This document shows, in pieces, positions 194-63,774 of a stretch of 64,000 nucleotides of DNA (the first letter of the stretch is position 1; each line of letters opens with the position of its first letter). Origin of the DNA: a virus; IMG/VR virus record IMGVR_UViG_3300020152_000020, positions 15,815 to 79,814 of that record; one strand, written 5' to 3'. A program made the translations under genes and the position numbers. The notes below the pieces were generated by a model. It had not been told where the DNA came from. It saw only the letters and a list, made by a program, of their open reading frames with translations, and did no database searches.

Positions 194-222
194 TTGACAT
201 TGTGTTAACCGCGCGGTATTGT
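194..222 (+). promoter_or_regulatory. sigma70-like promoter overlapping the palindrome
   Basis: TTGACA (194-199), 17 bp, TATTGT (217-222). Confidence 0.75.
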
Positions 223-282
223 TCTGTCATCGGAACCAGATGCCCCCGAAGGGGCAAAGACAACGATAACGGAGATCACAAA

Positions 283-2761: not shown

Positions 2762-2789
2762 TTGACACAATGTCATAAACGGGTATGGT
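2762..2789 (+). promoter_or_regulatory. sigma70-like promoter overlapping the palindrome
   Basis: TTGACA, 16 bp, TATGGT upstream of recQ. Confidence 0.65.
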
Positions 2790-5002: not shown

Positions 5003-5764
5003 ATGCCGAAACCGCGCCCAACACCGCAAGGTGCAAAGCCGCTCCCGGCTGCGTCTGAAGGGCCAATGCTGCCGGGGCTGGCCGATGTCGTTCCCAAGGT
5101 CGAAAACGCGCCCACAGGGCCGGGATTTGGGGGTTCCGGGCTTCCCAGCGAGGCCGTCCGGGCTGTAACCGACGTTTTGAACGGGGTTCCGCCCGCTCCG
5201 GCTCCGGCTGGACCCACCGCAGCACAGGTGCACGTTGCGTTGTCGGTTCTGCGGGCCGGGCGTGACATTGTGTCAGAAACCGCGTGGCTGGCGGCGCAGC
5301 AGGCCGTCAATCAGGCGCTCTCAATGCCGGGGTGGACCGGGGCCGCTACGGATTGCCTGCCGTTCGGGGTGGAAGCTGAACGCGCGCGGGGGCAGCATGA
5401 TCACTTACTGGAACTTCTCGACCGCTCTGGTGCGGTCATCGACGAATTGCAGACCTTCGTGGAAGGCTGCACGGACAAGATCGGGCCGGGGGTCGCGATG
5501 GAAGCACGCGCGGTTCTGGCTCGCGTCAAACTCTTAGCTGAAGGGAAACCCGATGGGACTGAAGGATCGAATCGCAGCAGCGCAACGGATGCAGGCAGCG
5601 GCCAAGCAGGCGAAGGTGACAATCGTGACGGCGCGGCAAGTCTCGACGCCGATCTCCGAACCGCGCGTGAAAATCACAATGCCAAGCTCGCAGGTGCCGA
5701 TGACGCCGATCCCGGTCCCGACGAAGGACCCGGCGACATTGACGAGAACAGCGTCCCGTTCTAA
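5003..5764 (+). CDS. Hypothetical protein
   Basis: 253 aa; Pro-rich N-terminus, acidic tail overlapping next gene. Confidence 0.6.
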   Translation: MPKPRPTPQGAKPLPAASEGPMLPGLADVVPKVENAPTGPGFGGSGLPSEAVRAVTDVLNGVPPAPAPAGPTAAQVHVALSVLRAGRDIVSETAWLAAQQAVNQALSMPGWTGAATDCLPFGVEAERARGQHDHLLELLDRSGAVIDELQTFVEGCTDKIGPGVAMEARAVLARVKLLAEGKPDGTEGSNRSSATDAGSGQAGEGDNRDGAASLDADLRTARENHNAKLAGADDADPGPDEGPGDIDENSVPF

Positions 5765-5924: not shown

Positions 5925-6472
5925 GCGCGTTAAAGATCGCAATGGAAGCGGTGCGGTACATCGTGGATCAGAAGCCGGAGCACACGAAAAAGGGCCGCTT
6001 ACTGGACAACGTGACTGACGCGCAGGTCGTCAACTCCCTGCTCAGTGAGGCCAACGAGCTACACGAGGCTGTGGTGCTCAACCACAAGGAAGACGCGATC
6101 CCGTATGAAGCTGCGGACGTGCTGATCCCGATTTTCCATCTGTCCAAGCGCCGGGGGTGGTGTGAGGAAGACTTGGCGCGCTGGGTGATCGAGAAGTTGA
6201 TGCTCCGGCACCACCTGTCGGAAGAACAGAAAGCACACATGACGGAGCTACTGGCACGGGTGGTCGCGGCTGACGAAGTTATGCTCCGGGTGGCGGTGGC
6301 TCTCCCCGTGCTTAACCTTGTGTTAACGCGGGCCGGGGTGAAAGACATTCCCCGTGCTGTGGGGCTGCTCACGGAGTTGATCGCGGACTTCCAGCGGTGC
6401 TTTCCTGAAGTGGTCGCTGAAGCGAAACGGCGCGCGGAACAAAAAGAGAAGCCGGGAAGCTCTGAAGCCTGA
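5921..6472 (+). CDS. MazG-like (NTP pyrophosphatase fold) protein
   Basis: SEANELHEAV...YEAADVLI resembles the ExxE...ExxD metal-binding pattern. Confidence 0.5.
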   Translation: MSALKIAMEAVRYIVDQKPEHTKKGRLLDNVTDAQVVNSLLSEANELHEAVVLNHKEDAIPYEAADVLIPIFHLSKRRGWCEEDLARWVIEKLMLRHHLSEEQKAHMTELLARVVAADEVMLRVAVALPVLNLVLTRAGVKDIPRAVGLLTELIADFQRCFPEVVAEAKRRAEQKEKPGSSEA

Positions 6473-7429: not shown

Positions 7430-7489
7430 AAAACAAAACGAAGGTCTGGGCGTCGGTTGACAGTGTGTTAACCGCTGAGGGATGCTGCC

Positions 7490-9226: not shown

Positions 9227-9407
9227 GCTCGCGTTGCTGCTGATCGCCGGGTTGTCGTATTTGTTGGGAGAGGGGCCACAACCATGCTTCAAACTGCCGT
9301 TAACCGCAAACCCAGAGCCGCCGAAGGCATACCGGAATGTTACGGGGTATCTTTTTCCGGTGAGTCTCGAAAATGTGGGGTGTGTCCTGTCCGCGATGCC
9401 TGCGTGA
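9069..9407 (+). CDS. XRE-family helix-turn-helix protein
   Basis: VRTLRERAELSQSDVAILYGLCHRNQVSLCEKG; GGGGG RBS before GTG 9069; overlaps helicase tail. Confidence 0.55.
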   Translation: MNKLNRRNESRVLGLAVRTLRERAELSQSDVAILYGLCHRNQVSLCEKGENFKLALLLIAGLSYLLGEGPQPCFKLPLTANPEPPKAYRNVTGYLFPVSLENVGCVLSAMPA

Positions 9408-10252
9408 CACAATGTCAACGGTGGCTGCTCCGGGCGTCCCTGTCGGAGCGGCTGAAGGTGCTCGAAAAGAGCATGGTGATTTCGAGTGAGACGTTGAACT
9501 TGCCGCAGCTTTACACGCGCCTGTACGAGCAGCACTACGGAACGCGGGATTGTCCTGATCTGGTCACTGGGGCGGCGGCGTTCGGGGCTTTTGGCTGGGT
9601 GGATCGGTTCTGCCGGGAGAACGACATCGACCCGGCGCTGTGGATCACGGCCCAGATGCACGGCATGAAGATGTTTCTCGACAAGCAGCGGGAGTCTGGC
9701 GGGCACTGCCCGTACTTCCGCATCAACATGCTTTGTGGGGACAAGGCGAAGGTTCGCTACAACGTTTATCTGCGGATCGCGTACCGCCGCTTCCGGCACG
9801 TCGGGGTTGACGTGTTCAACGGGCGCACGGATTTGACGAAGCTCTGCGTCGAGTTGAAGGAAGACGAAGAACGGATCGGCGCGTTCTATTGCATGAACGT
9901 GGTCGAGGGGCATCCGGTGTCGTGGCGCGAGTGTGTCAACGTTTGCGAGGCAGGCGAGTTGTGGCGCGCGGTTCACGAAGTGCCGGGCATCGCTTCGATG
10001 AAGAAGCTGACTGAACTGCGCCAGACGTACGACATGGAAACAATCAAGCGGTTGAAGACGCTTGCCACGCTGCGGGCTGCTGTCGCAGTCGCTTCCCGGT
10101 ACGCGTATGACCTTGCTGATCGGATCGGTTATCGCGATCCGTTCCTCTGGAATGACTTCGCAATGCTCTTGCTCCGGCTGTACGGCGGCGAGAAGATTAC
10201 ACCTGTGAATAAGGTAAAGGGGATCGCTGGAACTGAGTGGAGAGGGGCGTAA
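9284..10252 (+). CDS. Hypothetical protein (Cys-rich N-terminus), possible helicase loader/accessory
   Basis: 322 aa directly upstream of and coupled to the DnaB-like gene; C-x11-CxxC-x5-C. Confidence 0.65.
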   Translation: MLQTAVNRKPRAAEGIPECYGVSFSGESRKCGVCPVRDACVTQCQRWLLRASLSERLKVLEKSMVISSETLNLPQLYTRLYEQHYGTRDCPDLVTGAAAFGAFGWVDRFCRENDIDPALWITAQMHGMKMFLDKQRESGGHCPYFRINMLCGDKAKVRYNVYLRIAYRRFRHVGVDVFNGRTDLTKLCVELKEDEERIGAFYCMNVVEGHPVSWRECVNVCEAGELWRAVHEVPGIASMKKLTELRQTYDMETIKRLKTLATLRAAVAVASRYAYDLADRIGYRDPFLWNDFAMLLLRLYGGEKITPVNKVKGIAGTEWRGA

Positions 10253-11757: not shown

Positions 11758-11852
11758 CACGCGCTTTCTTGCGGTCTTTCCCGCATAGCGCGACTTGTTT
11801 GCTTATGACATTGTGTTAACATGGGTGGCGGCTCGAAAGGAAGGAGACGCCT

Positions 11853-15658: not shown

Positions 15659-16462
15659 ATGCCGAACGATTTGGATTCAGTGTTTTGCCCGTCCTGCGGA
15701 ATGAAGACGCACCTTACCGCGTCTGGCCGAAGCATCTGTCCGAACTGTCTGGACCTGAAAGCAAAGCCGTACACGCTCGACCTGTCGCTCCCTGTGCTGC
15801 TTGAGGCTCCGATCCCGCCGACTGAGAACCTGAGTTGCACCGTCTGTACGGAGCGCGCGACGCGGTATATCATCATAGCTTCGCACCGCCCGGTGTCGCT
15901 GCTCTGCGAACTGCATTACAAAATGTTGCTCACGCAGGAAGTTGAGCGGTTCAAAGCGGGTGCAGCGGCGATGATGGGTCAGGTGACGAAGGCCGCGAGC
16001 ATGTTCGATTTCGTGGCGCTTGAGATTTGCCTGCTCTCCATGATGTCGCTGCGGGACGCCGGGAAGAACGCGCAGTTCCGGGATGCGTACACTGCGGTCC
16101 CGCTACCGGACGCTCCCGCTCCCAACCTTCAAAACATCGGCACGCAGACGGGCCGGATGCAGTCTGTGGTGCCGAACGAATCGGGGACAGCCAAGCCAGC
16201 GCGCCCGGTTCACTGCCCGCGCTGTGCGCAGGAACGCGGCGTTGCGATCCCGAAGGAATGCCCGCACGTGTCGCCGAACAAGGGCGGGTGCTGGTATTGC
16301 TGGATCGCTGATAACAAGTTGGTCTTTTGCAACGAATTCGATACGTATATCCATATCGACTGCATCAAGGCGCAGTTGGCAGCGTTGCCGCCCGGAACTG
16401 AAGACCCGGAACTTGCGGTGATCGCGGCGGAATTCAAGGAAGCTCTGGCTGAGGGCGGTTAA
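15659..16462 (+). CDS. Multi-Zn-finger hypothetical protein
   Basis: CPSC, CPNC, CTVC, CELH, CPRC, CWYC motifs. Confidence 0.65.
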   Translation: MPNDLDSVFCPSCGMKTHLTASGRSICPNCLDLKAKPYTLDLSLPVLLEAPIPPTENLSCTVCTERATRYIIIASHRPVSLLCELHYKMLLTQEVERFKAGAAAMMGQVTKAASMFDFVALEICLLSMMSLRDAGKNAQFRDAYTAVPLPDAPAPNLQNIGTQTGRMQSVVPNESGTAKPARPVHCPRCAQERGVAIPKECPHVSPNKGGCWYCWIADNKLVFCNEFDTYIHIDCIKAQLAALPPGTEDPELAVIAAEFKEALAEGG

Positions 16463-16466
16463 CACA

Positions 16467-16694
16467 ATGTCAACCGGGAACCCTGAATGCTTTGGGAACG
16501 TGACGCGCAGCCGGGAGTGTAATGGCTGCGCGGTGAAGATGGAGTGCTACGAACAGCAGCAGACGGATTTGGCGGTGTACCTGCTCCCGAAGGACAGGCC
16601 CGCTCCGAAGGACGCACCGCCGAAGCCCGCCCGGTACGTGAAGGAAACGCCGACACCGAAGGTGAACGATGCCGCCGATCAAGAAGACGAATAA
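16467..16694 (+). CDS. Small Cys-containing hypothetical protein
   Basis: ATG lies inside a palindrome copy; CFG...CNGC...C. Confidence 0.55.
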   Translation: MSTGNPECFGNVTRSRECNGCAVKMECYEQQQTDLAVYLLPKDRPAPKDAPPKPARYVKETPTPKVNDAADQEDE

Positions 16695-20513: not shown

Positions 20514-20540
20514 TTGACATTATGTTAAAGGGGGGTCCGC

Positions 20541-22270: not shown

Positions 22271-23509
22271 ATGCCTAAGAAAGTGTCCGCCGAAGTTCTC
22301 AACAAGTTGCGCAGCCAGCAGAAGGAAATGGGTGGTGGTTTAATTATCACCAACAAGAACTTCACCAAGCTCCGCTGCCGCATCCTGCCCATCGCCGAAG
22401 ACGCTCCCGGTAAAGAGTACATCGGCCTGTACTGCGAGTCGCTGAAGAAGGGCACCACGTCGCCCCGCACCTTCGGCAATAAGTGCCCCGTGATGGATTA
22501 CATCGACAAGGTGAAGCGCACGGGCGAGAAGGACGAAAAGGAACACGTCAAGAACTACGTCAACATCCAGCGCGAATACTGGATGGGCGTGGTGTCGCAG
22601 GAAGATCGCGACACCCGTGAGTCGAACGCCGTGGCGATCCGCATTCTGTGCGCGAAGCGTTCGGTGTACGAAGAAATCATCAAGTTCATGATGGACGAAG
22701 ATGACGGCGAAGACATCACTGATCCGAAGGAAGGGCGCGACATCCGGGTGAAGAAGGAAGGCTCCGGGATGGACACGCAGTGGACGGTGAAGTTCCTCGA
22801 CCGCGAGCCTGTGTCGAACGACGAAGACTACGTCTCCGCGTTCGTCGAAGCCGCCAAGGGCTTCAACGTCGAAGACCACTTCTTCAAGGTGGACTATGAC
22901 ACGTTGGGTGAGATTTACACCAACCTGACGGGTGAGCCGATCCCGGATGAATACCTCGAAGGCGTTGACACAAAGTCATCCGGCAAAAAGTCGGGCGGCA
23001 AGGTGTCGAAGGTGGTCACGAAGGACGACGACGAAGACGACAAGCCCGCTGCTGCTCCGGCCAAGTCGAGCAAGCCCGCTACGGCTGGCCCGGCGAAGAA
23101 GAAGACGGTTGAAACCGAACCGGAACCCGAAGCCGACGAGGCTGCTGAGTTCCCGCGCGAAGGTGCTCGCTGCTCGTTCAAGGACGCGGACGGCAACGAC
23201 ATCGAAGCCGAAGTGCTCAAGCAGAACGAAGACGGTTCGTGGGACGTGAAGGACACCACGGGCGAAGTCTGGGGCGTCAACGCGGACGATCTGACGGAGA
23301 TCGCGGCGGAAGAAGCGGAACCGGAAGCCGAACCCGAAGCGGAAGAAGAAGCGCCCGCTCCGGCCCCGGCTAAGAAGGGTCCGGTCGCGAAGGGCGGCGG
23401 TACTCCGGCTGCTCCGGCGAAGCCCGCCACTCCGGCTGGTCCGCGCAAGCCGACCCCGACGAAGGCGTCCGGTTCGATCAAGGATCGTCTGGCTTCGGCC
23501 AAGAAGTAA
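22271..23509 (+). CDS. Single-stranded DNA-binding protein, T4 gp32-like, with long tail
   Basis: RCRILP, FGNKCPVMDY, DITDPKEGRDIRVKKEG; acidic and Ala/Pro/Lys tail; position next to RecA. Confidence 0.75.
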   Translation: MPKKVSAEVLNKLRSQQKEMGGGLIITNKNFTKLRCRILPIAEDAPGKEYIGLYCESLKKGTTSPRTFGNKCPVMDYIDKVKRTGEKDEKEHVKNYVNIQREYWMGVVSQEDRDTRESNAVAIRILCAKRSVYEEIIKFMMDEDDGEDITDPKEGRDIRVKKEGSGMDTQWTVKFLDREPVSNDEDYVSAFVEAAKGFNVEDHFFKVDYDTLGEIYTNLTGEPIPDEYLEGVDTKSSGKKSGGKVSKVVTKDDDEDDKPAAAPAKSSKPATAGPAKKKTVETEPEPEADEAAEFPREGARCSFKDADGNDIEAEVLKQNEDGSWDVKDTTGEVWGVNADDLTEIAAEEAEPEAEPEAEEEAPAPAPAKKGPVAKGGGTPAAPAKPATPAGPRKPTPTKASGSIKDRLASAKK

Positions 23510-27476: not shown

Positions 27477-27518
27477 CACAATGTCAAAAAATAATTCTCG
27501 CTACACGCGGGAAAAACG

Positions 27519-36280: not shown

Positions 36281-36296
36281 CGCGAGGGTTAACACA

Positions 36297-41918: not shown

Positions 41919-42443
41919 ATGTTTAAGGTACGCATCCCGTTCATTAGCAGAACGGTTGACGGTCAGCCGCTACAGTGGGTGCTCGAAGAAACGGCGAAAC
42001 AGTGCGACATGACCCCGCATGACGTGATGATCGTCATCACGCACGTCTTGGAGAACATCGCGCGGGCGCTGACGAAGGGCTGGATCGTCCGCATCCCCGG
42101 CTTCGGAATGTTCGGGCCGTACACGTGGTGGCCGCGCAAGGCTGGCTCCCATGAGCCTGACAAAACGAAGGCGGCGCACGTGCTGCCCCGGTTCGTTGCG
42201 GCGAAGGGGTTCGTGTCGGAGATCGACGTGTCGTGCCGCCCGTCTGAGGAACGAAACAAGAAGCTGGACGTGTATCGCAAGAACCACGCGTACTACTCAA
42301 AGGCGACGCCGGATGATCGCAGGGTGTTCACGGCGATGTCAAAGTTCCGGGAGAGCGTTGTGGCCGATAAGCGCAAGCTGGGGATGGACGATAAGATGTT
42401 CAAGGTGCGGCAGTCCGCGCTTAAAAACATGGAACACTTATGA
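41919..42443 (+). CDS. HU/IHF-like DNA-binding protein
   Basis: VLENIARALTKGWIVRIPGFGMF...PRFVAAKGF. Confidence 0.65.
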   Translation: MFKVRIPFISRTVDGQPLQWVLEETAKQCDMTPHDVMIVITHVLENIARALTKGWIVRIPGFGMFGPYTWWPRKAGSHEPDKTKAAHVLPRFVAAKGFVSEIDVSCRPSEERNKKLDVYRKNHAYYSKATPDDRRVFTAMSKFRESVVADKRKLGMDDKMFKVRQSALKNMEHL

Positions 42444-43352: not shown

Positions 43353-43380
43353 TTGACATTGTGTCATTCCCGTGTAACTT
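43353..43380 (+). promoter_or_regulatory. sigma70-like promoter overlapping the palindrome
   Basis: TTGACA, 16 bp, TAACTT. Confidence 0.65.
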
Positions 43381-44418: not shown

Positions 44419-44562
44419 ATGGGTATCGCGATTTGGCTGGGCGTCACATTGTTGGGTGTGTTAAAGTGGGGGCCGGGTGACGAGTCTGCGCTGTGCTGCG
44501 CTCTGGGACTGGTCGCCGGGCTTTTGTACGTGAGCGCCGTCTCTCAGAAAGGGGTTGACACA

Positions 44563-44730
44563 ATGTCACAGGAAACTGACAAACCGAAGCCAAGGCCGGG
44601 GCCGCTGGTCGAAGACGAAACGGTCGTGGGTGGCTACGACGAACAGACGGGCGCGGCGGTGATCCGGCCCAAGACGCCGGACGGTCGCGCGGACGAATCG
44701 ACGCGGCCTACGGATCGCCGCGAGAAGTAA
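44563..44730 (+). CDS. Small hypothetical protein
   Basis: AAAGGGG RBS; ATG inside palindrome copy 44555. Confidence 0.45.
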   Translation: MSQETDKPKPRPGPLVEDETVVGGYDEQTGAAVIRPKTPDGRADESTRPTDRREK

Positions 44731-45309: not shown

Positions 45310-45395
45310 CTTTGTGGGGGGCCGGGTGTGCGTCGAGAGGGTTCGGCGCGCGCCCGGTTTTTCTTTTGACACTGTGTTAATGAAAGGGGTGTACG

Positions 45396-47767: not shown

Positions 47768-47900
47768 GGGTATTACATCAACGTCTGGTTCAGACGACTC
47801 CGGGTTAAGTTCGTGCACGGTACGATTAATATGTGGGAAGAGAATAACGCTGACGGCACCGACACGGAGTGGGTGGCGAGCTACCGAAGGGAATGACACA

Positions 47901-48143
47901 ATGTCAAAGAAGAAAACGCGGGCGAAGGGCGGCTCCCGTCTTCTGGGTGTGGCTGGCTCTGACGGGCATACGCGGATCACGAACGGGCCGGGGTACACGT
48001 TGTCGGGCGGCGATAAAGAAACCCACGAGCGAATGCAGACGACGGCGGAAAAGTTTAACGAGCAGCTTCAGAAGAAGGGCAAACGGCTTGAAGACATCGG
48101 GCCGTCTGAGTTCCGGGACATGATTGGAGACGCGCAACGATGA
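47901..48143 (+). CDS. Small conserved hypothetical protein
   Basis: ATG inside palindrome 47893; DGHTRIT...GGDKETHERMQ...KFNEQL. Confidence 0.6.
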   Translation: MSKKKTRAKGGSRLLGVAGSDGHTRITNGPGYTLSGGDKETHERMQTTAEKFNEQLQKKGKRLEDIGPSEFRDMIGDAQR

Positions 48144-48525: not shown

Positions 48526-49053
48526 ATGACGGACTATGTGGCAGGGTTCCTTTTCAGCGAGGATCGAAGTCAGGTGGTGTTGATCCTCAAGGATCATCCC
48601 GAATTTCAGCGCGGGAAGTTCAACGCTATCGGCGGCAAGATCAGGCCGGGTGAGTCTCCGTTTCAGGCGATGCGCCGGGAGTTTCTCGAAGAAGCGGGTG
48701 TGGACATCCCGGAAGGACTCTGGGAACCGTCCGTTCTGCTGGCGGGCGACTGCTGGCGGGTCTTCACGTTCGCGGCGTACGGCGACGTTCGCAAGGCACG
48801 CACTACCGAAGCCGAACAGGTGTACACCTTCCCGGTGTCGCACGTGTCGAATCTGCCGACGCTGCGGAACGTGCCCATGTTGATCGCGCTCTGTCTCGAC
48901 GTGACGATCCACAAGCCGATCCTGTTGACGGACGCAGAGATCAGGAAGACGCCCGCCGACGTGACGAATGTGTTTCACAGGTTCGCGATGCCGTCTGAGG
49001 GGCCTGTGCTGGTCTCGCCGCCCGGCGATCCCGACGACGCGATGCACGGTTGA
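48526..49053 (+). CDS. Nudix hydrolase
   Basis: Nudix box GGKIRPGESPFQAMRREFLEEAGV. Confidence 0.9.
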   Translation: MTDYVAGFLFSEDRSQVVLILKDHPEFQRGKFNAIGGKIRPGESPFQAMRREFLEEAGVDIPEGLWEPSVLLAGDCWRVFTFAAYGDVRKARTTEAEQVYTFPVSHVSNLPTLRNVPMLIALCLDVTIHKPILLTDAEIRKTPADVTNVFHRFAMPSEGPVLVSPPGDPDDAMHG

Positions 49054-49082
49054 CACAAGGTTAACGCAAAGGAGCGCACGCG

Positions 49083-50658: not shown

Positions 50659-51017
50659 TGGGTCTGCCAGTGAAGAAGACCGGGGTGACGACTCCGGTTC
50701 GGAAGGGTCCGGCTGTCGTGGCGGCTCCGGCTAAGGCTGCTACGACGCTCAATCGCACGGTGCCGGACAAGGACACGAAGCCGCCGTACCACGTGAACCA
50801 GTGGGGGAAGATCAACGATCCGCACTGGTTCGATGTCCGGCTGCTGGTCCCGCGTGCGTCAGGTGAGGGGCATGATTGCCTGTTTGTGGCGGTGAAGGGA
50901 GACACGCCAGAGAAACGGGCTGAGGCGCTGAAGACGGCGTTGCTGCGGATCGCGAACATGCGTGAAGCCATTGCTGCGGAGTACCTGAAGTTCCTCAACG
51001 AAGGGTCAGACCGTTGA
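50658..51017 (+). CDS. Hypothetical protein
   Basis: TAATG-coupled; PVKK/PVRKG motifs. Confidence 0.6.
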   Translation: MGLPVKKTGVTTPVRKGPAVVAAPAKAATTLNRTVPDKDTKPPYHVNQWGKINDPHWFDVRLLVPRASGEGHDCLFVAVKGDTPEKRAEALKTALLRIANMREAIAAEYLKFLNEGSDR

Positions 51018-51081
51018 CATTGTGTTAACGAGACGGTTGTAAGCTGGGGGCGGAAGGCAATGTTCATCATAAGGGTGGTTA

Positions 51082-55087: not shown

Positions 55088-55176
55088 TATTTTCTCGCGC
55101 TCTCCAAGAAAGAAGTTGCAATATGCCGCGTCATGCGGCATATTTGTTTTTGACACAATGTCAAAGGGGGGCAGCG

Positions 55177-55446: not shown

Positions 55447-55471
55447 AATGGGTGCGTGAAGGGTTAACACA

Positions 55472-55972
55472 ATGTCAAAGCTCAAAGAGAAAATCGAGAA
55501 GGTGAAGCGGCCCCGGATGACGCTGCTGTTTATTCGCATGGGCTGGTCCCCGTCGAAGAAGCCGCTGCAAATCTGGTATCGCCTGAATGGCGAGACGCCG
55601 GAAGAACAGCGTCAGTCGTACGACAGCTACGATGATGCGCGGGAGATGGCGTTCAGTCCCAAAGGGATGCCGCCTGTGTCGCCCGGCATGACGTACACGT
55701 TCGAGTTTAACCCGGACAATCCGGGTTCGATTTACCCGTCGTCCCGGCACTTCGCCGGGGTGTTCAATCACGACAATGTGACGGAGTGGCTGGCTCAATT
55801 CGAGGCGTTCAAGACGGCTGCGAAAGTTCGCCGTCAAGAGACGCAGGCCAAGCACCGCAACATCTTCGAGAACCTCGATCCGTTCCGGCGCGCGTACCGG
55901 AACCTTCCAGCCGATCAGGGCGCGGCGCTGCTCGCCCGGATGATCCAATACGTTCAGGGGTATAAGCGATGA
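55472..55972 (+). CDS. Hypothetical protein
   Basis: ATG inside palindrome 55464. Confidence 0.65.
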   Translation: MSKLKEKIEKVKRPRMTLLFIRMGWSPSKKPLQIWYRLNGETPEEQRQSYDSYDDAREMAFSPKGMPPVSPGMTYTFEFNPDNPGSIYPSSRHFAGVFNHDNVTEWLAQFEAFKTAAKVRRQETQAKHRNIFENLDPFRRAYRNLPADQGAALLARMIQYVQGYKR

Positions 55973-57905: not shown

Positions 57906-59669
57906 ATGCTGACGGAAACGGAACAGGTGGACGAAGCGGGCGTGAAGCGCATGGTGAAGAAGCGGTCGCAGGGTGATCGTCTCAAAGCCCGCCGCTACTA
58001 CAAACAGAACAAGCGCCGCATCAAGGCGATCCGCACGGGCAAGATTCGCGTGCGCCTGACCATGAACCAGAAGAAGGCCGTCGCCGCCCGGAAGCGCACG
58101 GGCCAGTACAATCGCATCGCGAAGCTGTACAACAGCGCCGACCAACTCCCCGCGACCGTGCTGGGTGAGATCGCGCACTCGAAGGACTACATTAACACTG
58201 TGTTAGAGGTTGCCGCCGCGTTCAACGATAAGCCGGACGCGCGTGAGTTCGCGAAGTTCTTCCTCGACCGTGACCCGGTGTACTCCAACACGAAGGCCGG
58301 GCTGCACGCGCTCATGTTCGAGAACTGGCTGGCCGACGAAGCCGACAGCATCTACGGAAAGCTGATCGAGACGCACGTGTCGCCCGCCGAAGAGAGCTTC
58401 CTCGCGATCTTCGAAGGCAAGCTGACCGACGAGGAACGGAAGCTGGTCAACGAGAAGGCTGAGTTCATCAAGGCTGAGATGCTGCTCGAAGCCGGAGCCA
58501 TGATCCCCGACGAAGGCGAAGTGTCGGACGTGACGATCATCGAGTGCTTCCCGGTCAAGGGTAAGCACTACGAACCGAAGGACGACGAAGCGTCCGCTCC
58601 CATCGACGCCCCGAAGCCGGAAGATAAGCCGACCGACGAAGCCCTCACTGAAGGCGTCCGGTTCGAGAAGACGATCCGGGCCACGGACGCAACGCTGAAG
58701 GCGCTCGTGTCGTCCAACAGCGACTTCAAGGACATTGACCCGGCGCTGGCTTCGCTGGCTGGCACGGGCGGCACGAAGTACAGCCTCGTGACGGACGGCA
58801 CGGTGGGCGTGATCGTCAACGCGGAAGGGTACGACTATCCCCGCTACAAGTCCCCGCGCATGATGATGACGATCATCAACAAGCTGACGCCGGAGCAGAT
58901 CGAGAAGTGTGTGGGCCGGAAGGAGAACTTCCCGCCGAAGATGCTGGTCCACGATCCGGTGTCGCTCGACCGCCTCATGCAGATGTTCGAGGGCGTCAAC
59001 GAAGGCCGCGTGCTGCCCACTGAGAATGAATCGTACGGCTTCTACGGAACCTGCATCACGGCAGGGAAGACGGAAGCCGAAGCGAAGAATCTCTGGGATG
59101 AAGCCAGCAAGGGGCTGAAGAAGCTGAACCCCAAGGCGACTCCCGAACAGATTCGCGACTTCCTCGACTCGCGCATCGGTCGCCATATCGCCGATCAGGT
59201 CGCGGGGGATAACAAACCCGTTGACACTGTGTTAAAGGAAAAGTGGGTCGGCAAGGACTTCAGCAAGTTCGTCGGCACGGGGAAGGTGCGCGGCTTCGGG
59301 GAAGGAACCGACACCGTCACCAAAGACGACGGTAACGATCTGGCGGAAGAGATGGGCCGCTACGAGTCCAGCAAGCTGAACGTGAACGAAGGGGGCGACG
59401 ACGAGGAAATCACCCGCCTCACGTTCGGGAAGATTCCGGCGTGGAAAGAGTTCGAAGCCGCGTTCGATGACCGCGTTGAAGGCAATGGCTACAATATCAA
59501 ACTCAGCAGCAGCGATTCCAAGGCGGCTGAAGGAACCAGCATCGGGGATGGACGACTGAAGGCACCCGCGCTGTACAAGGGCATCAAGGAACTGATCGCG
59601 AAGGGCGACGAAGATGCGGACGACCTCGCCAGCAGCATCCTGTACACGCTGGGCTTCGAGTGGGTGTGA
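57906..59669 (+). CDS. Large modular protein, probable virion/prohead-core protein
   Basis: 587 aa; basic N-terminal block; repeated [LVI]xE-[GA] linkers. Confidence 0.6.
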   Translation: MLTETEQVDEAGVKRMVKKRSQGDRLKARRYYKQNKRRIKAIRTGKIRVRLTMNQKKAVAARKRTGQYNRIAKLYNSADQLPATVLGEIAHSKDYINTVLEVAAAFNDKPDAREFAKFFLDRDPVYSNTKAGLHALMFENWLADEADSIYGKLIETHVSPAEESFLAIFEGKLTDEERKLVNEKAEFIKAEMLLEAGAMIPDEGEVSDVTIIECFPVKGKHYEPKDDEASAPIDAPKPEDKPTDEALTEGVRFEKTIRATDATLKALVSSNSDFKDIDPALASLAGTGGTKYSLVTDGTVGVIVNAEGYDYPRYKSPRMMMTIINKLTPEQIEKCVGRKENFPPKMLVHDPVSLDRLMQMFEGVNEGRVLPTENESYGFYGTCITAGKTEAEAKNLWDEASKGLKKLNPKATPEQIRDFLDSRIGRHIADQVAGDNKPVDTVLKEKWVGKDFSKFVGTGKVRGFGEGTDTVTKDDGNDLAEEMGRYESSKLNVNEGGDDEEITRLTFGKIPAWKEFEAAFDDRVEGNGYNIKLSSSDSKAAEGTSIGDGRLKAPALYKGIKELIAKGDEDADDLASSILYTLGFEWV

Positions 59670-59805: not shown

Positions 59806-62800
59806 ATGCCTAAGCCTGTCACGAACGAAACCCCCGCGCTGTACGAAGTCCAGAAGACCAAGCTCAGTAACCTCAAGCTCGATCTCGAACGGTGCCTGTC
59901 GCACTACGATGCGTGGGTGGTGGAAGAACAGGATAACGGTAAGGCGCTCGTACAGGTCCCGCTTAACGGGAAGACCCATCTGGCGTATCTGAATCTCCCC
60001 TACGAACACGTGAAGGCCACCATCGACGAGAACGCGAAGACGTATGCCGATCTCCCGGAAGAGTTCGATACGGTGATCGAGAAGTGGCTGGTCGAACAGG
60101 TCAAGGACCCGACACTGTGTGAGCAGGACGTTGTGTTAAGCGGCCTGAATGAAGGGGTAGGAGCCACCAGTAGGTATACCGTAAGGTCAGCAACGGTCGC
60201 GCGCTCGTGTTCGCTCCGGCAACTGGCTGAAGGGAAGGCTCAGGCGAAGGCCACTACGGGATCGAACGACGAGGCTAAGGCTGACGATCTGCCCGCCCGG
60301 TTCCGCAAACGCAAAGGGGTGAAGTCGATGGAAGAAGTCTTCCCGGAGTCCGGCGTTGACATTGTGTTAATCGAATCCAAGGCCGCGCTGGCTTACCTGT
60401 GCGCGGCTGAAGTGTACGACGGCGGCACCCTGTCGCCCCAGCGGTCGCGTGAGTTCCAGCGCATCTGCGGGCTTGGCCTGCGTGAAGCCAGCGCGGTGCA
60501 GATCGGGGACCGCATCGTACTACCGAACGGGCTGACGATGCGTGTGGTCGTGCTCTCCCCCGACGATCTGAACAACATCAAGGCTGAGGGCGGCAAGCTC
60601 TCCCCGGAGCGCATCGTCGATCTGATGGAAGCTGATCCGCTGGCTCCGAAGAAGAAGGACCACTCCACGAAGGAGAAGGACGGCGAGTTCAATTTCGAAC
60701 TGAAGGACGTGCAGGACTACTACGACATCCAGATCATCCAGTCCGTCGATCAGGGTGAGGCGCTGCGCAAGACTGAACTGAAGTTCGGCGTGAAGGGCAA
60801 GCTCACCGTCTCCCCGGTTGGCGTCATCTCTGTGGACGGGCTGCTGTCCGACAAAGAGCAGGCCGAACTGGACGCGGAGCAGGCGGCTAAGGATGCGGAG
60901 AAAGAAAAGGCCGCTGCACAGGCCAAGGCTGACGCGGACGCGCAGGCCGCGAAGGACCATGAGATCGAACTGGCGAAGGCGTCGTCCAAAGGTGGCCCCA
61001 AGGTGGTCATCCAAGCGGACAAGGACGGCGATGGTAAGCCGGACAAGCCGAAGCCTACTACGAAGCCCAAGCCGACTGACGAAGCTGAGTTCCGGGTGGG
61101 CAAGAGCATCCCGGCGTTGCAGGGCTGGTCGTCTGCCAGCGCGTACGCCGTGGTGGACGGCAAGGGCCGCAGCGTCCGCAAGCACACGTTCCAGTTGATC
61201 GGCAAGGGCACGTACACGATTGTCTGGAACGCGGAAGGCAAACGCGATCTGATGTTCAACGGCCAGACGATCAGCGTGCACGAGACGCCGGAAGAAGCGG
61301 TCATTGCTGCCCGGACTCACGCGAAGTCGGTGAAGGAAAGCGTGGCCGTCGAAATGGCGCGCATCGCTGGTGTGCGTCTGGGCGGGAAGCGCGTGGCTCA
61401 CCTGACCGAAGGCGTGACGCTCCCGGAACCCATCGCGGAACGTCTCTTCACGGTCGAGGAACTGAAGGCCAAGGCTACTACGCTCCCGCTGTACAAGCTG
61501 GACGAACGCCTGAGTCTGGCGAAGCTCGCTGCCCGGCGCGGTGAAACGCTGGATCAGGTGATGCAGAACACCGACGAGGCTCTGAAGTATGCCGGGATCA
61601 TGGTCGGTGACGAACCGCGCGCGTTCTCCCTCGACGAACTGAAGATCGTGTACAAGGCGAAGAACCCGAAGTACGACATCGGCTTTGACGAGTGGGTGTC
61701 GGCCCACTGGAAGCGCGCCAACGAGAACGCGACGCTGACGTGTCCGAACTGCAATGGCACCGACGCGGTGTCCAAGACGGAGAAGGGCTACTACTGTGAC
61801 GCCTGCGACAGCGCCTTCTCCGTGAACGAAGTGTTCAAGCCGATCAGCGAGTCAGTGACGGTGCGTGAGATCGCCGAACGCGATAGCCGGGCGCTCGCCT
61901 CTGGTCCCGGCCCGGTCAAGGCGTCTGACGAACCGCTCGCCAAGCGGTACACGACGTTCCTGAAGCGTGGCAACACGTTCAGCCCGTCCGGCCCCGTGGT
62001 GGTGGCTGAGAAGCTGGACGCTTGCCCGTACGAGATCGTGCTCACGCCGTGGGGTGTTGAGTTCACGAAGGTCAAACCGAAGACGGACGAGCTACTGAAG
62101 TTCGAGTCGTCGGTGATGAACGAAGTGGTCAAAGAGGTTGACCGCTTCTGGGAGCGCCAGCAGAACTATGCCGATCTGGGTCTCATGCACTGTCGCGGCA
62201 TCCTGATGTACGGCCCGCCCGGCTCCGGCAAGTCGTGTGCGCTACAGCAGGTCACGGAGATGATGGTCGAACGCGGGGACGTGGTGTTCTTTGCCAACAA
62301 CGTCGAAGCGATCACTGAGGGCTTGAAGGCGTTCCGTGAAGTCGAAGAGAAGCGCCGCGTCGTGGTGTGCTTCGAAGAGGCTGAGGCGCTGGTCCGGTAC
62401 AATGAACGCGCGCTGCTCCGGCTGCTCGACGGTGACGCGAAGGTGAACAACGTTCTGTATCTGGCGACGACCAACTACATTGACCAGATCAGCGAGCGTA
62501 TGCTGCGGCCCGGTCGCTTCGATAAGAAGATTTACGTGGGGCACCCGCCGCTGGCCGGGCGTCTGGCTTACCTTGAGCACAAGCTGAAGGGTGCCAAGCT
62601 GGCCGAAGACGGCACGATCAAGGAACTGGCGAAGGCTACGGAAGGTCTGAGCTTCGGACACATGCGAGAGTTGCTGGTCGGCGCGTTCGCAATGGGGGAG
62701 CCTGTGAAGGACGTACTCGCCCGGCTGAAGGAAGGGATCGGGTCCATGAAGGCCAAGCTGTACGGTGAGCGCGTGACTGAAGCCGTGCAGTCGCTCGACG

Positions 62801-63774
62801 AGTCGGCTACTACGGCGCAGTGCTTCGCGTGTGACGCTGTGTTAAACGAAGCGGTCGAGAGCAAGTATGCGCTTTGCCCGGCGTGCGAAAGCAAGATCGA
62901 CGAGGCTGAGTTGTCCGACGAGACGGCGCGTAAGTTCCTCGTGCCGGGTAAGTCCGTGGTGATCGACAACGTGTGGTGGACGATCAAGAACCGCGACATC
63001 GACGCGAACAAGGTGACGCTGCGCGTGTCGGACTGGGCGATCAAGGACGGCAATAAGCCGGGGACGAAGGACGTGTCGTTCACCGATCTGGTCGCCAAGA
63101 TTCGCAAAGGGACGTGGGGCGCGCGCATCAACGGTAAGGCGATTGGCAAGCAGCAGGACCAGACCGTGCGCGCCAAGCTGCGGGCGAAGAACGGACTACG
63201 GAAGGCTCCCGGTACGCCGGACGTGAAGGAAAGCGAGCCTGTCGTCATCGACTTCTGCGAAGCCACGCTCCCGGCGCTGCTCGCGCTGTACACCGTCGAA
63301 GGCATGAAGGGGATCGACGAGGGCGACACGTTCACTCCCGACGCTGTGCGTGACTACGCAACGAAGGCCGCTGACATTGTGTTAAGCGGAAGCTGGTCGA
63401 AGGGCAACGCGAAGGAGCACAAGCTCTGCCGGGAAGTCCTGAAGTCCACCGGGCTGACGAAGGTCTTCGAAGAGATGGACAAGGCTGCGCAGGAACTGGA
63501 CTGGGACGGCGGCGGTGAAGACCTGACGAAGCCGGAAACGGATCGGCTTGAGAAAGCCTACGAAGCGGTCAAGGAACTGGCTGAGAAGGCGAACGCGGTG
63601 ATCGAGGCGGCGTATAACCGTCTGCGGGACTGGTCGGAGAAGAAGCTGCGCGTGTCCGGCAAAGACCTGAAGATGGACGCGGCGCTTGAGTCCGATCAGG
63701 CTCTGGTCCACGTGCTCACTGTGAACGGTGTTCGCTCCCTGCTCTCGAAGATCATGCGCGCGCGTCCGCTGTAA
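59806..63774 (+). CDS. 1322-aa modular protein with internal AAA+ ATPase, probable virion-packaged polyprotein
   Basis: Walker A MYGPPGSGKS, Walker B-like VVCFEEAE, ATTNY, RPGRFD at ~62050-62750; many [LVI]xE-[GSA] linkers. Confidence 0.75.
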   Translation: MPKPVTNETPALYEVQKTKLSNLKLDLERCLSHYDAWVVEEQDNGKALVQVPLNGKTHLAYLNLPYEHVKATIDENAKTYADLPEEFDTVIEKWLVEQVKDPTLCEQDVVLSGLNEGVGATSRYTVRSATVARSCSLRQLAEGKAQAKATTGSNDEAKADDLPARFRKRKGVKSMEEVFPESGVDIVLIESKAALAYLCAAEVYDGGTLSPQRSREFQRICGLGLREASAVQIGDRIVLPNGLTMRVVVLSPDDLNNIKAEGGKLSPERIVDLMEADPLAPKKKDHSTKEKDGEFNFELKDVQDYYDIQIIQSVDQGEALRKTELKFGVKGKLTVSPVGVISVDGLLSDKEQAELDAEQAAKDAEKEKAAAQAKADADAQAAKDHEIELAKASSKGGPKVVIQADKDGDGKPDKPKPTTKPKPTDEAEFRVGKSIPALQGWSSASAYAVVDGKGRSVRKHTFQLIGKGTYTIVWNAEGKRDLMFNGQTISVHETPEEAVIAARTHAKSVKESVAVEMARIAGVRLGGKRVAHLTEGVTLPEPIAERLFTVEELKAKATTLPLYKLDERLSLAKLAARRGETLDQVMQNTDEALKYAGIMVGDEPRAFSLDELKIVYKAKNPKYDIGFDEWVSAHWKRANENATLTCPNCNGTDAVSKTEKGYYCDACDSAFSVNEVFKPISESVTVREIAERDSRALASGPGPVKASDEPLAKRYTTFLKRGNTFSPSGPVVVAEKLDACPYEIVLTPWGVEFTKVKPKTDELLKFESSVMNEVVKEVDRFWERQQNYADLGLMHCRGILMYGPPGSGKSCALQQVTEMMVERGDVVFFANNVEAITEGLKAFREVEEKRRVVVCFEEAEALVRYNERALLRLLDGDAKVNNVLYLATTNYIDQISERMLRPGRFDKKIYVGHPPLAGRLAYLEHKLKGAKLAEDGTIKELAKATEGLSFGHMRELLVGAFAMGEPVKDVLARLKEGIGSMKAKLYGERVTEAVQSLDESATTAQCFACDAVLNEAVESKYALCPACESKIDEAELSDETARKFLVPGKSVVIDNVWWTIKNRDIDANKVTLRVSDWAIKDGNKPGTKDVSFTDLVAKIRKGTWGARINGKAIGKQQDQTVRAKLRAKNGLRKAPGTPDVKESEPVVIDFCEATLPALLALYTVEGMKGIDEGDTFTPDAVRDYATKAADIVLSGSWSKGNAKEHKLCREVLKSTGLTKVFEEMDKAAQELDWDGGGEDLTKPETDRLEKAYEAVKELAEKANAVIEAAYNRLRDWSEKKLRVSGKDLKMDAALESDQALVHVLTVNGVRSLLSKIMRARPL

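What the first reader, a model, noticed from the sequence alone, without database searches (positions are those of the whole stretch)
194..63385. About 30 copies of a 15-bp palindrome (TTRACAYWRTGTYAA) stamped across the genome, including inside conserved genes
Seen: an AT-rich inverted repeat recurs in a GC-rich genome, never more than about 4.7 kb apart (positions listed in features). Copies occur in three contexts. (a) Overlapping the -35 of promoters: 194, 2762, 25114, 43353. (b) On stop or start codons: TAA at 16460 and 27474; TGA at 33891, 49051, 51015; starts at 16467, 36297, 44563, 47901, 55472. (c) Inside coding sequence: SbcD IDTVLK 31032, portal DDAVLM 40754, INTVLE 58192, VDTVLK 59221, VDIVLI 60356, CDAVLN 62831, ADIVLS 63371. 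These intragenic copies use GTG-TTA, a Leu codon that looks rare elsewhere in these genes, so selection appears to act on the DNA. Established: dispersed, often intragenic palindromes are typical of chromosome-organising sites (parS, Noc NBS, SlmA SBS, MatP matS) more than of ordinary operators. Inference: a phage-specific genome-wide binding site, most simply for the ParB in this window, that also doubles as an operator.
Basis: partly seen in the sequence, partly recalled or inferred. Interest (0 to 1): 0.92.

Follow-up and report, generated by a model that had tools for sequence, protein, structure and literature searches.

The report
Phage-wide palindrome lattice, likely ParB sites
A 15-letter DNA palindrome is written about every 2 kb through this uncultured phage's genome, even inside genes, and comparison with relatives suggests it is the docking site of the phage's own partner-less ParB protein, a pairing the literature I could search does not describe.

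Summary
TTRACAYWRTGTYAA occurs 15 times exactly and 32 times with up to 2 mismatches in the window (0.38 expected), and 49 times in the 95-kb contig. Copies inside genes are 12 to 200 times more frequent than in codon-preserving shuffles. They hold 13 of the genome's 48 rare TTA codons. Spacing is more even than chance, though not periodic: gap CV is 0.52, and 95% of the contig lies within 1.5 kb of a copy.

Selection acts on the DNA, not the RNA, and few copies are promoters.

The motif is inherited with a large family of uncultured phages (GC 50-67%, so probably diverse hosts). All keep an orphan canonical ParB (CTPase motifs plus HTH) between RecA and a 5'-3' exonuclease. Lineages differ in the motif's outer or central bases. 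A copy lies just upstream of parB in 10 of 14 lineages. There is no ParA and no integrase.

Best reading (about 0.6): loading sites for the phage ParB clamp, in the manner of KorB or Noc. A few copies also cover promoter -35 boxes. Binding itself is untested.

The main contrary fact is an unrelated ParB-less phage with nearly the same palindrome. This scan has noted similar lattices in other phages. Cluster O mycobacteriophages are a cultured parallel.

The parts
194..208 (.). Palindrome copy TTGACATTGTGTTAA (exact). Intergenic, just after a T-run. It serves as the -35 box of a sigma70-like promoter, with -10 TATTGT 17 bp downstream.
2762..2776 (.). Copy TTGACACAATGTCAT (1 mismatch). Intergenic. 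It serves as a -35 box, with -10 TATGGT 16 bp downstream.
5262..5276 (.). Weak copy GTGACATTGTGTCAG (2 mismatches), in a stretch where gene calls are uncertain (ORF 5003-5764).
6312..6326 (.). Copy TTAACCTTGTGTTAA (1 mismatch), inside the MazG-like gene 5921-6472.
7457..7471 (.). Copy TTGACAGTGTGTTAA (1 mismatch). Intergenic, upstream of the 565-aa gene that starts near 7490-7529.
9404..9418 (.). Copy GTGACACAATGTCAA (1 mismatch). Its TGA at 9405-9407 is the stop codon of the HTH_31 ORF 9054-9407. It lies 40 nt upstream of the next start.
11805..11819 (.). Copy ATGACATTGTGTTAA (1 mismatch). Intergenic, 34 nt upstream of the start at 11853.
16459..16473 (.). Exact copy TTAACACAATGTCAA. It supplies the TAA stop of gene 15659-16462 and the ATG start (16467) of the next gene.
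20514..20528 (.). Exact copy TTGACATTATGTTAA. It begins right after the stop of gene 19794-20513 and ends 13 nt before the start of the Pif1-like helicase gene.
22965..22979 (.). Weak copy TTGACACAAAGTCAT (2 mismatches), inside the gp32-like SSB gene.
25114..25128 (.). Exact copy in the RecA-ParB spacer, 147 nt upstream of parB. It looks like a -35 box but the -10 (TAAGTT) is weak. A copy at this place recurs in most relatives.
25231..25245 (.). Copy TTGACACAGCGTCAA (1 mismatch), 30 nt upstream of the parB start codon.
25275..26411 (+). Orphan ParB gene (378 aa) and proposed binder. It has a ParB_N CTPase domain (NPR, GERRLKA and EN..R motifs) and an HTH_ParB domain with recognition helix HPMKVRRCLTL.
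27473..27487 (.). Exact copy that supplies the TAA stop of the 5'-3' exonuclease gene. The relative L422 has a copy at the same place.
28525..28539 (.). Exact copy. Intergenic, 10 nt before the start at 28549.
31032..31046 (.). Exact copy inside SbcD. It sits at the same alignment column in G001 and L422, although the encoded peptide differs (IDTVLK / VDTMSK / HDIVSI).
33890..33904 (.). Exact copy that supplies the TGA stop of the SbcC-like gene 32106-33893.
36289..36303 (.). Copy TTAACACAGTGTCAG (1 mismatch). It contains the GTG at 36297 that starts ORF 36297-36962.
37906..37920 (.). Exact copy in the last codons of gene 37236-37934, 20 nt before the start of the large terminase gene.
40754..40768 (.). 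Weak copy ATGACGCTGTGTTAA (2 mismatches), inside the portal gene.
43353..43367 (.). Copy TTGACATTGTGTCAT (1 mismatch). Intergenic. It looks like a -35 box but the -10 (TAACTT) is weak.
44555..44569 (.). Copy TTGACACAATGTCAC (1 mismatch), preceded by GAAAGGGG. It contains a possible ATG start at 44563.
45366..45380 (.). Exact copy after a T-run, 16 nt before the start at 45396.
47893..47907 (.). Copy ATGACACAATGTCAA (1 mismatch) that supplies the ATG start at 47901.
49050..49064 (.). Copy TTGACACAAGGTTAA (1 mismatch) that supplies the TGA stop of gene 48526-49053.
51014..51028 (.). Exact copy that supplies the TGA stop of gene 50658-51017.
55150..55164 (.). Exact copy. Intergenic, 13 nt before the start at 55177.
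55464..55478 (.). Exact copy that supplies the ATG start at 55472.
58192..58206 (.). Copy TTAACACTGTGTTAG (1 mismatch), inside the 587-aa gene.
59221..59235 (.). Exact copy inside the 587-aa gene.
60356..60370 (.). Exact copy inside the 1322-aa gene.
62831..62845 (.). Weak copy GTGACGCTGTGTTAA (2 mismatches), inside the 1322-aa gene.
63371..63385 (.). Copy CTGACATTGTGTTAA (1 mismatch), inside the 1322-aa gene.
36806..37108 (+). HU/IHF-like gene (Bac_DNA_binding, E 1e-14). It is conserved in relatives and is a rival candidate binder.
41919..42443 (+). Second, weaker HU-domain gene just after the portal gene. Also a rival candidate binder.

Best explanation
The 15-bp palindrome (two half-sites TTRACAY around one central base) is a double-stranded-DNA binding site for a dimeric phage protein. 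The most likely binder is the orphan ParB-family CTPase encoded at 25275-26411.

By analogy with KorB and Noc, ParB dimers would load at each copy, close into CTP-bound clamps and slide about a kilobase. Copies every ~2 kb would then put almost the whole phage chromosome within reach. Where a copy overlaps a -35 box, including in parB's own promoter region, binding would also repress transcription.

Status of each step:
- Shown: the sites are real, are selected at the DNA level, are evenly spread and are inherited with this phage family.
- Inferred: ParB is the binder; the clamp-and-slide mechanism applies.
- Unknown: what the coating is for. Candidates are genome organisation, silencing, or marking phage DNA as self.
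For: 1. Enrichment and DNA-level selection.
- 32 copies in the window against 0.38 expected.
- Intragenic counts of 7/13/17 against 0.03/0.28/1.37 in synonymous shuffles.
- 27% of all TTA codons lie in copies.
- The SbcD-internal copy is kept in three lineages while the peptide changes.

2. Symmetric recognition on DNA.
- Information content is confined to 15 bp.
- Intergenic copies point either way, 16:16.
- Half-sites mix freely. Among intergenic copies, the G:U-compatible and A:C-mismatched forms are about equal (11:8 by my reading).

3. Even coverage.
- Gap CV is 0.52 against 0.97 for random placement, P<5e-5.
- 95% of the contig lies within 1.5 kb of a copy, against 79% for random placement, P<0.0005.
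- 1.5 kb is the sliding reach reported for KorB (PMC11790492).

4. ParB is canonical and under constraint.
- Pfam finds ParB_N plus HTH_ParB.
- The best PDB matches are Spo0J, ParB, Noc and KorB.
- NPR, GERRxRA and EN..R, and VRR in the recognition helix, are nearly invariant in 82 orthologues.

5. Co-inheritance.
- Relatives sharing RecA-ParB-exonuclease synteny, with GC from 50 to 67%, nearly all carry the motif (L424 has none; several others have only 1-2 copies in the fetched stretch). Each lineage has its own variant: TTGACAGNCTGTCAA, GTAACACWGTGTTAY, CTAGACACATTGTCTAG, TRGACACSGTGTCYA, ATTAACGARTCGTTAAT, GTGACAC..GTCAC.
- The two lineages with helix KKVRRAL share the TRGACA variant. The most deviant helix (EQSRVRRC) goes with the only change in the core, ACA to ACG.

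6. A copy lies within ~250 nt upstream of parB in 10 of 14 lineages. This includes lineages with only 1-4 copies in ~20 kb.

7. There is no ParA and no integrase, so classical partition or prophage immunity is unlikely.
Against: - No binding assay or protein-DNA model could be run.
- The unrelated contigs G002 and G006 carry ~30 copies of TTGACATNATGTCAA but have no ParB_N, HTH_ParB or KorB domain. So the same core can exist without ParB.
- The link between recognition helix and motif rests on about two independent changes. It does not give a clean code.
- Relatives were selected by their ParB. Other conserved core genes, including two HU/IHF-like proteins, are therefore co-inherited just as well.
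- Four lineages have no copy near parB, and L424 has no recognisable motif at all.
- In G001 the central base of intergenic copies points with transcription, 21:3. A symmetric clamp loader does not predict this.
- Pfam detected no C-terminal dimerisation domain.
Confidence: 0.6

Rival explanations
1. The copies are bound by another phage-encoded dimeric DNA-binding protein, and ParB is a bystander. Candidates are one of the two conserved HU/IHF-like proteins, the HTH_17 or HTH_31 proteins, or an unrecognised small protein.
For: - G000 encodes two Bac_DNA_binding proteins that are conserved in G001, G005, L422 and L424.
- It also encodes HTH_17 and HTH_31 proteins.
- Every core gene is co-inherited with the motif as well as ParB is.
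- G002 shows the motif can exist without ParB.
Against: - HU/IHF proteins read the minor groove over ~30 bp with little symmetry. Here about 22 bits are packed into a strict 15-bp dyad with no flanking signal.
- tblastn with my called G000 genes finds no G001 match for the wHTH protein at 6935-7429; the HTH_31 ORF 9054-9407 was not among the called genes and was not compared.
- None of these genes has a conserved copy next to it as parB does.
Confidence: 0.15
2. The palindrome is the site of a host-encoded protein, such as a global regulator or a nucleoid protein. Different phages of that host recruit or titrate it.
For: - Two unrelated phage lineages share the core TTGACA-N3-TGTCAA: the G000 family and G002/G006.
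- The cultured relative of G002, Rhizobium phage RHph_TM27A, lacks the motif. The motif is therefore not a trait of that backbone.
Against: - Within the ParB phage family the motif persists across GC contents from 50 to 67%, so probably across diverse hosts.
- It changes lineage by lineage in its outer or central bases. That pattern fits a binder carried by the phage.
- No host genome could be examined, so a host regulon with this site is unknown.
Confidence: 0.1
3. The copies act in RNA, as a 6-bp hairpin next to ribosome-binding sites that affects translation, processing or mRNA stability. Alternatively they are promoters or terminators.
For: - 19 of 49 copies lie within 40 nt of a start codon or overlap one, often directly before the Shine-Dalgarno sequence.
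- The forward form folds into a hairpin.
- TTGACA equals the sigma70 -35 consensus. Two copies in G000 and 8 in G001 have a good -10 box.
Against: - Intergenic copies point both ways equally, 16:16.
- The reverse form has an A:C mismatch and folds at -2.9 against -7.1 kcal/mol, yet is about as common.
- Copies sit before the SD, after the SD and inside genes, so no fixed relation to translation signals exists.
- Only 2 of 54 copies have a usable -10 box.
- Lineage variants such as GTAACA and TAGACA destroy the TTG of a -35 box.
- The placement next to starts is explained by the only free space available in a tightly packed genome.
Confidence: 0.05
4. The palindrome is the target of a sequence-specific DNA transaction rather than of stable binding: base modification, nicking or recombination. 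ParB might act as an activator, as in the phage ParB-dependent thymine dioxygenases.
For: - Phage ParB-like proteins activate 5-methylpyrimidine dioxygenases (PMC13229309).
- G000 encodes an N6 DNA methylase and HNH nucleases.
- parB lies in the replication and recombination module next to RecA, FEN and SbcCD.
Against: - No Tet/JBP dioxygenase is found in G000, G001, G002, G003 or G005.
- The dioxygenase-associated ParBs lack a DNA-binding domain, whereas this ParB has an HTH.
- A modification or nicking target has no evident need for even spacing.
- Copies are not enriched at junctions between conserved and variable genes, 9/30 against 22/90.
Confidence: 0.07

Closest known systems
KorB and its OB operators on IncP plasmid RK2 (PMC11790492)
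   Same: - A ParB-family CTPase with an HTH.
- It binds an odd-length palindrome (TTTAGCSGCTAAA) dispersed over a mobile genome. Some copies lie at promoters and others far from them.
- It loads there, closes as a CTP clamp and slides up to 1.5 kb.
- Sequence similarity to this ParB is detectable (8qa8, E 1e-5).
   Different: - Here there are at least 49 sites on 95 kb, evenly spread and often inside genes.
- No ParA is present and no KorA-like partner is known.
- The element is a probably lytic phage.
- Binding and CTP use are untested here.
Noc and its NBS sites in Bacillus subtilis
   Same: - A ParB paralogue without a ParA partner.
- It binds many dispersed palindromes (my recollection, not checked here) and is not used for partition.
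- Noc structures are among the PDB sequence matches (7ng0 and 7nfu, about E 1e-7).
   Different: - Noc is chromosomal and tethers DNA to the membrane through an N-terminal helix.
- By my recollection, its site density is about one per 50 kb, not one per 2 kb.
- No membrane helix was tested here.
17-bp palindrome TGTTCGGNNNCCGAACA of Cluster O mycobacteriophages (PMC4351075)
   Same: - About 34 copies on ~70 kb, with 7-bp arms and GC-rich flanks.
- Copies lie between genes, near starts and inside genes. Few are at promoters.
- The phages are not temperate and have no integrase or ParA.
- They encode a ParB-like protein, Corndog gp90.
   Different: - The sequence and host differ, and the spacer is 3 bp.
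- The authors named three candidate binders and did not link the repeat to ParB.
- Function is unknown, and even spacing was not reported.
Stoperators of Cluster A mycobacteriophages (L5 repressor gp71)
   Same: Tens of copies of one short site lie across a phage genome, many in short intergenic spacers at stop and start codons. (From my own knowledge; the Cluster O paper alludes to it.)
   Different: - Stoperators are asymmetric and all point one way relative to transcription.
- They are bound by the immunity repressor of a temperate phage.
- Here the site is a dyad, G000 intergenic copies point both ways, and no integrase is present.
Canonical ParABS partition (parS)
   Same: A ParB with CTPase motifs and an HTH, with a palindromic site next to its own gene.
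   Different: - No ParA.
- No canonical parS.
- The N-terminus does not match the ParA-binding motif regex given in PMC12704722 (sequence, regex; compared by eye).
- Sites are spread over the whole genome instead of clustered.

Membership tests
ParB/Spo0J/Noc/KorB family (ParB-CTPase with HTH) | N-terminal ParB-CTPase fold with NPR, GERRxRA and ENxxR motifs | tested here: met
   ParB_N matches at E 5.7e-10, above the cut-off. The motifs are visible in the alignment and nearly invariant in 82 orthologues.
ParB/Spo0J/Noc/KorB family (ParB-CTPase with HTH) | Central helix-turn-helix DNA-binding domain | tested here: met
   HTH_ParB scores 29 bits against a cut-off of 22.6. The region aligns to the Spo0J HTH of 1vz0.
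ParB/Spo0J/Noc/KorB family (ParB-CTPase with HTH) | C-terminal dimerisation domain | tested here: inconclusive
   Pfam finds no domain in residues 250-378. A conserved LLWDRG block exists there. No structure was predicted.
ParB/Spo0J/Noc/KorB family (ParB-CTPase with HTH) | CTP binding and hydrolysis, and clamp closure on the cognate site | not testable with these tools
   Needs biochemistry.
ParB/Spo0J/Noc/KorB family (ParB-CTPase with HTH) | Specific binding to a palindromic site | not testable with these tools
   Only indirect evidence is available: a copy upstream of parB in 10 of 14 lineages, and lineage-specific variants.
ParABS partition system | Adjacent ParA ATPase and a ParA-binding motif in ParB | tested here: not met
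   PF01656 finds no match over its cut-off in G000 or in G001, which is 98% complete. The neighbours of parB are RecA and FEN. The N-terminus DEGKGAA does not fit (L|F|I)G[KR]G(L|F|I).
ParABS partition system | Canonical parS TGTTNCACGTGAAACA | tested here: not met
   One match with 3 mismatches, against 1.36 expected.
KorB-type global regulator | Many dispersed palindromic operators, both near and far from promoters | tested here: met
   49 copies. A few overlap -35 boxes and most do not.
KorB-type global regulator | Clamp-locking partner (KorA) with its own operator | not tested
   No KorA homologue was sought. The KorB Pfam domain PF08535 is not detected.
Stoperator system (Cluster A mycobacteriophages) | Asymmetric site, all copies in one orientation relative to transcription | tested here: not met
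   The site is a dyad. G000 intergenic copies split 16:16. G001, however, shows 21:3.
Stoperator system (Cluster A mycobacteriophages) | Temperate phage with an immunity repressor and an integrase or partition system | tested here: not met
   No tyrosine integrase and no ParA.
Sigma70-type promoters | -35 box followed by a -10 box 16-18 bp downstream | tested here: not met
   Only 2 of 54 copies in G000 have a -10 box scoring at least 4/6 with A2 and T6, against a background of 1.7%.

The most novel reading that the evidence does not exclude
A large family of probably lytic, uncultured phages uses an orphan canonical ParB-CTPase as a chromatin-like system. Loading sites are written every ~2 kb, even into essential genes, so that sliding clamps coat the whole phage chromosome. 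The coat would organise or condense replicating phage DNA, set it apart from host DNA, or time its expression. The same principle would explain the unexplained palindromes of Cluster O mycobacteriophages, which also carry an orphan ParB-like gene.
Probability: 0.3. Interest if true: 0.85.

Novelty: new variant of a known kind. Interest (0 to 1): 0.68.

Why it matters
ParB-CTP clamps are known from chromosome and plasmid partition, from Noc and from KorB. A recent survey found the canonical ParB architecture (CTPase plus HTH) almost only on chromosomes and plasmids (PMC12704722).

Here that architecture sits in the replication module of a widespread phage family with no ParA. It is paired with a dense, evenly spread set of candidate loading sites that selection maintains even at the cost of rare codons.

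If ParB binds them, this would be a genome-wide clamp-loading lattice on a virus. It would give a concrete, testable function for orphan phage ParBs. It would also give a likely answer to what dispersed palindromes in phages such as Cluster O are for.

The sites and protein are short and well defined, so EMSA, CTPase and ChIP experiments are straightforward.

Tried and rejected
- Exact 15-mer scans of viral contigs gave mostly single chance hits. Only G001, G002, G003 and G006 stood out.
- The megablast against cultured phages found nothing. ParB has no close relative among cultured phages.
- The one genome-contig scan, run with the ParB alignment, returned only generic ParBs from unrelated MAGs, so the host remains unknown.
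- Whole metagenome records could not be pattern-searched, so lattice statistics for most relatives rest on ~20-kb pieces.
- Strict periodicity is rejected. No period between 400 and 6000 bp beats random placement.
- Copies at module junctions (recombination joints) are rejected: 9/30 against 22/90.
- The CtrA box (TTAA-N7-TTAA), FNR/FixK, the PrfA box, matS, IHF, the DnaA box and LexA boxes were compared from memory. Each was dropped because spacing or key bases do not fit. None was tested further.
- The ParB-dependent thymine dioxygenase idea was checked. No Tet/JBP domain was found.
- No protein family shared by G000 and G002 explains the common motif. Only a 239-aa protein of unknown function next to PolA and an AAA segment match.

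Full report
**The observation**

The window is bases 15815-79814 of a single 95,015-bp viral contig. The contig has 59.6% GC, and about 120 genes lie almost all on one strand. CheckV estimates it as 68% complete.

The pattern TTRACAYWRTGTYAA occurs 15 times exactly (0.00 expected). With up to two mismatches it occurs 32 times (0.38 expected). The whole contig has 49 copies.

Information content is confined to the 15 bp, about 22 bits, with only a weak preference for G or C just outside. The site is best described as two half-sites TTRACAY around one central W. The G/A choice in each half appears independent: 21 GT, 10 AC, 15 GC and 3 AT combinations.

**Selection acts on the DNA**

I built a rough gene map by codon-usage scoring and placed the copies on it.
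- 17 copies are strictly inside genes.
- 11 supply the stop codon of the upstream gene (TGA or TAA at motif positions 2-4).
- 5-6 supply a start codon (ATG or GTG at positions 9-11).
- 19 in all lie within 40 nt of a start or overlap one.

Synonymous-codon shuffles that keep every protein and each gene's codon usage give 0.03, 0.28 and 1.37 intragenic copies at 0, up to 1 and up to 2 mismatches. The observed counts are 7, 13 and 17 (P<0.001). TTA is the rarest Leu codon at 2.07%, and 13 of its 48 occurrences lie inside copies.

The single reading frame of intragenic copies is not itself evidence, because the other two frames contain stop codons.

The copy inside SbcD sits at the same alignment column in three lineages with 42-54% identical proteins. 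The encoded peptide differs between them: IDTVLK, VDTMSK and HDIVSI.

**The selected object is not RNA and is rarely a promoter**

All genes are on one strand, so an RNA element should have a fixed orientation.
- Intergenic copies point either way, 16:16. Only intragenic copies are biased (15:3), which fits a coding constraint.
- The reverse orientation gives an A:C mismatch and a much weaker hairpin, -2.9 against -7.1 kcal/mol. It is nevertheless about as common among intergenic copies, 11:8 by my reading.
- Copies lie before the Shine-Dalgarno sequence, after it, or inside genes. The simplest reading is that they occupy whatever free space a tightly packed genome offers. Junctions with a copy have a median gap of 90 nt, against 14 nt for those without.
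- Only 2 of 54 copies (window 194 and 2762) have a good -10 box at the right distance, against a background of 1.7%. In the relative G001, 8 of 44 do.

So a few copies overlap promoters and most do not.

**Even spacing**

Gaps between copies have a CV of 0.52, against 0.97 for random placement (P<5e-5). The longest gap is 4,654 bp, against a simulated mean of about 8.5 kb (P=0.0007). 21 of 48 gaps fall between 2.15 and 3.0 kb.

There is no phase-coherent period. Short gaps and long gaps are both depleted. 95% of the contig lies within 1.5 kb of a copy, against 79% for random placement and a maximum of 92% in 2,000 trials. G001 shows the same tendency (CV 0.70, P=0.006). G002 does not reach significance.

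**Relatives**

A search with the portal protein found G001 (143 kb, 98% complete), which shares 32 genes at about 45-55% identity. G001 has 44 copies with consensus GTRACACWGTGTYAC. G003 and G005 are further relatives. G005 has 65% GC and four identical copies of TTGACACGGTGTCAA.

Copy positions are mostly not conserved between G000 and G001, yet density is kept. With the closer relative L422, several positions are shared: the FEN stop codon, the SbcD-internal copy and the spacer upstream of parB. Copies are not enriched at junctions between conserved and variable genes.

**The ParB link**

The protein at 25275-26411 has ParB_N and HTH_ParB domains. Its best PDB sequence matches are Spo0J, ParB, Noc and KorB. 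It lies between RecA and a 5'-3' exonuclease, in a module that also holds PolA, a Pif1-like helicase, a gp32-like SSB and SbcCD.

There are 82 orthologues at E<1e-30, many on contigs of 85-185 kb. The CTPase motifs (NPR, GERRxRA, EN..R) and the VRR of the recognition helix are nearly invariant among them. The RecA-ParB-exonuclease order is kept in every context I fetched. No ParA and no integrase were found, and no canonical parS.

I fetched ~13-21 kb around parB in further lineages and looked for the motif in each.

| Locus | Recognition helix or GC note | Motif variant | Copies found |
|---|---|---|---|
| L422 | GC 50%, helix as in G000 | TTGACATTGTGTTAA type | 6 in 16 kb |
| L423 | - | TTGACACTGTGTTAA | about 5 in 21 kb |
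| L425 | HTVRRALAI | TTGACAGNCTGTCAA | 15 in 21 kb |
| L428 | - | GTAACACWGTGTTAY | 5 in 13 kb |
| L346 | KKVRRAL | CTAGACACATTGTCTAG | 3 |
| L347 | KKVRRAL | TRGACACSGTGTCYA | 6-8 |
| L348 | EQSRVRRC | ATTAACGARTCGTTAAT | 2 |
| L344, L426, L429 | - | GTGACAC..GTCAC | 1-2 each |
| L427 | - | single copy 75 nt upstream of parB | 1 |
| L424 | - | none recognised | 0 |

The GACA...TGTC core is nearly universal, as is the helix VRR. Outer and central bases differ by lineage.

A copy lies within about 250 nt upstream of parB in 10 of 14 lineages. This includes lineages where copies are rare.

Because the motif persists from 50 to 67% GC, it travels with the phage family rather than with one host.

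All this fits a binder carried by the phage, with ParB as the prime candidate. It remains indirect for three reasons. Relatives were chosen by their ParB. The helix-motif correspondence rests on about two independent changes. Two HU/IHF-like proteins are equally conserved.

**The main contrary fact**

G002 is a complete 65.7-kb contig with a SU10-type portal that is 57% identical to that of Rhizobium phage RHph_TM27A. It shares essentially no genes with G000. Yet G002 and its relative G006 carry about 30 copies of TTGACATNATGTCAA in the same kinds of places.

G002 has no ParB_N, HTH_ParB or KorB domain, and a profile of the phage ParBs finds nothing in it. Its only clear HTH protein is an 87-aa GerE/LuxR-type protein. 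RHph_TM27A lacks the motif.

I cannot tell which of these applies: coincidence, a convergent binder, a shared host factor, or exploitation of another phage's ParB.

**Comparison with what is known**

- KorB of plasmid RK2 is a ParB-family CTPase. It loads at dispersed palindromic operators and slides up to 1.5 kb to reach promoters (PMC11790492). The 1.5-kb reach matches the coverage seen here, but that match is an inference.
- Noc is a ParA-less ParB paralogue with dispersed sites.
- A survey of the ParB-CTPase fold found orphan ParBs to be common. It reported the HTH-bearing canonical form almost only on chromosomes and plasmids (PMC12704722).
- Phage ParB-like activators of thymine dioxygenases lack a DNA-binding domain (PMC13229309). 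No Tet/JBP enzyme is present here.
- Cluster O mycobacteriophages have 34 copies of a 17-bp palindrome in the same three contexts. They have no integrase or ParA, and they encode a ParB-like gp90. The function of the repeat is unknown (PMC4351075). They offer a cultured test case.
- Earlier notes of this scan report similar evenly spaced palindromes paired with ParB/KorB-like proteins in other phage groups. I did not test those claims.

**Verdict**

The sites are real, selected at the DNA level, evenly spread, and inherited with a large phage family. The best explanation is a lattice of loading sites for the phage's orphan ParB-CTPase, at about 0.6 confidence. A minority of copies also act as operators. 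The biological purpose of the coating is unknown.

Noticed in passing
G002 = IMGVR_UViG_3300021363_000005 (loci L192-L195, L327, L328); G006 = L335: An unrelated podovirus-like phage carries about 30 copies of TTGACATNATGTCAA but has no ParB. Five copies cluster at a divergent region (G002 53.1-54.9 kb). Its only clear HTH is a GerE/LuxR-type 87-aa protein at 40831-41094. A second palindrome, about TAACTCCGGGGGTTA, follows several copies.
   Followed up: partly
G001 (loci L197-L204): In this relative the central base of intergenic copies is co-oriented with transcription (T on the sense strand 21:3, p=0.0003). In G000 the split is 16:16. I have no explanation.
   Followed up: partly
window 57442-57816: A phage-encoded one-piece tmRNA (Rfam RF00023, 160.9 bits; ARAGORN tag ANPFAQQSRVAA).
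   Followed up: partly
window 36806-37108 and 41919-42443: Two HU/IHF-like genes flank the terminase-portal block: one just upstream of the small-terminase-like and large terminase genes, one just after the portal gene. Both are conserved in relatives. They may have a role in packaging or DNA condensation.
   Followed up: partly
G001 54281-55996; G003 12714-15158 (L196): Two adjacent paralogous ParB_N proteins of 405-426 aa, in addition to the RecA-linked ParB. Their function is unknown.
   Followed up: no
L424 9152-13292; L428 8237-12505: In two relatives the large terminase-like ORF carries intein and LAGLIDADG domains.
   Followed up: no
L337 about 8415 (contig position 88229, outside the window): A palindrome copy lies immediately before the NPPF motif of an N6-adenine DNA methylase gene.
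   Followed up: no
window 9054-9407: A 117-aa HTH_31 (XRE-like) ORF overlaps the end of the preceding gene. Its stop codon is supplied by a palindrome copy. My gene caller skipped it, but it is probably real.
   Followed up: partly
window 19794-20513: This 239-aa protein after PolA is the only clearly shared protein between G000 and the unrelated G002 (E 4.5e-13), where it also lies next to PolA. No Pfam family matches it.
   Followed up: partly
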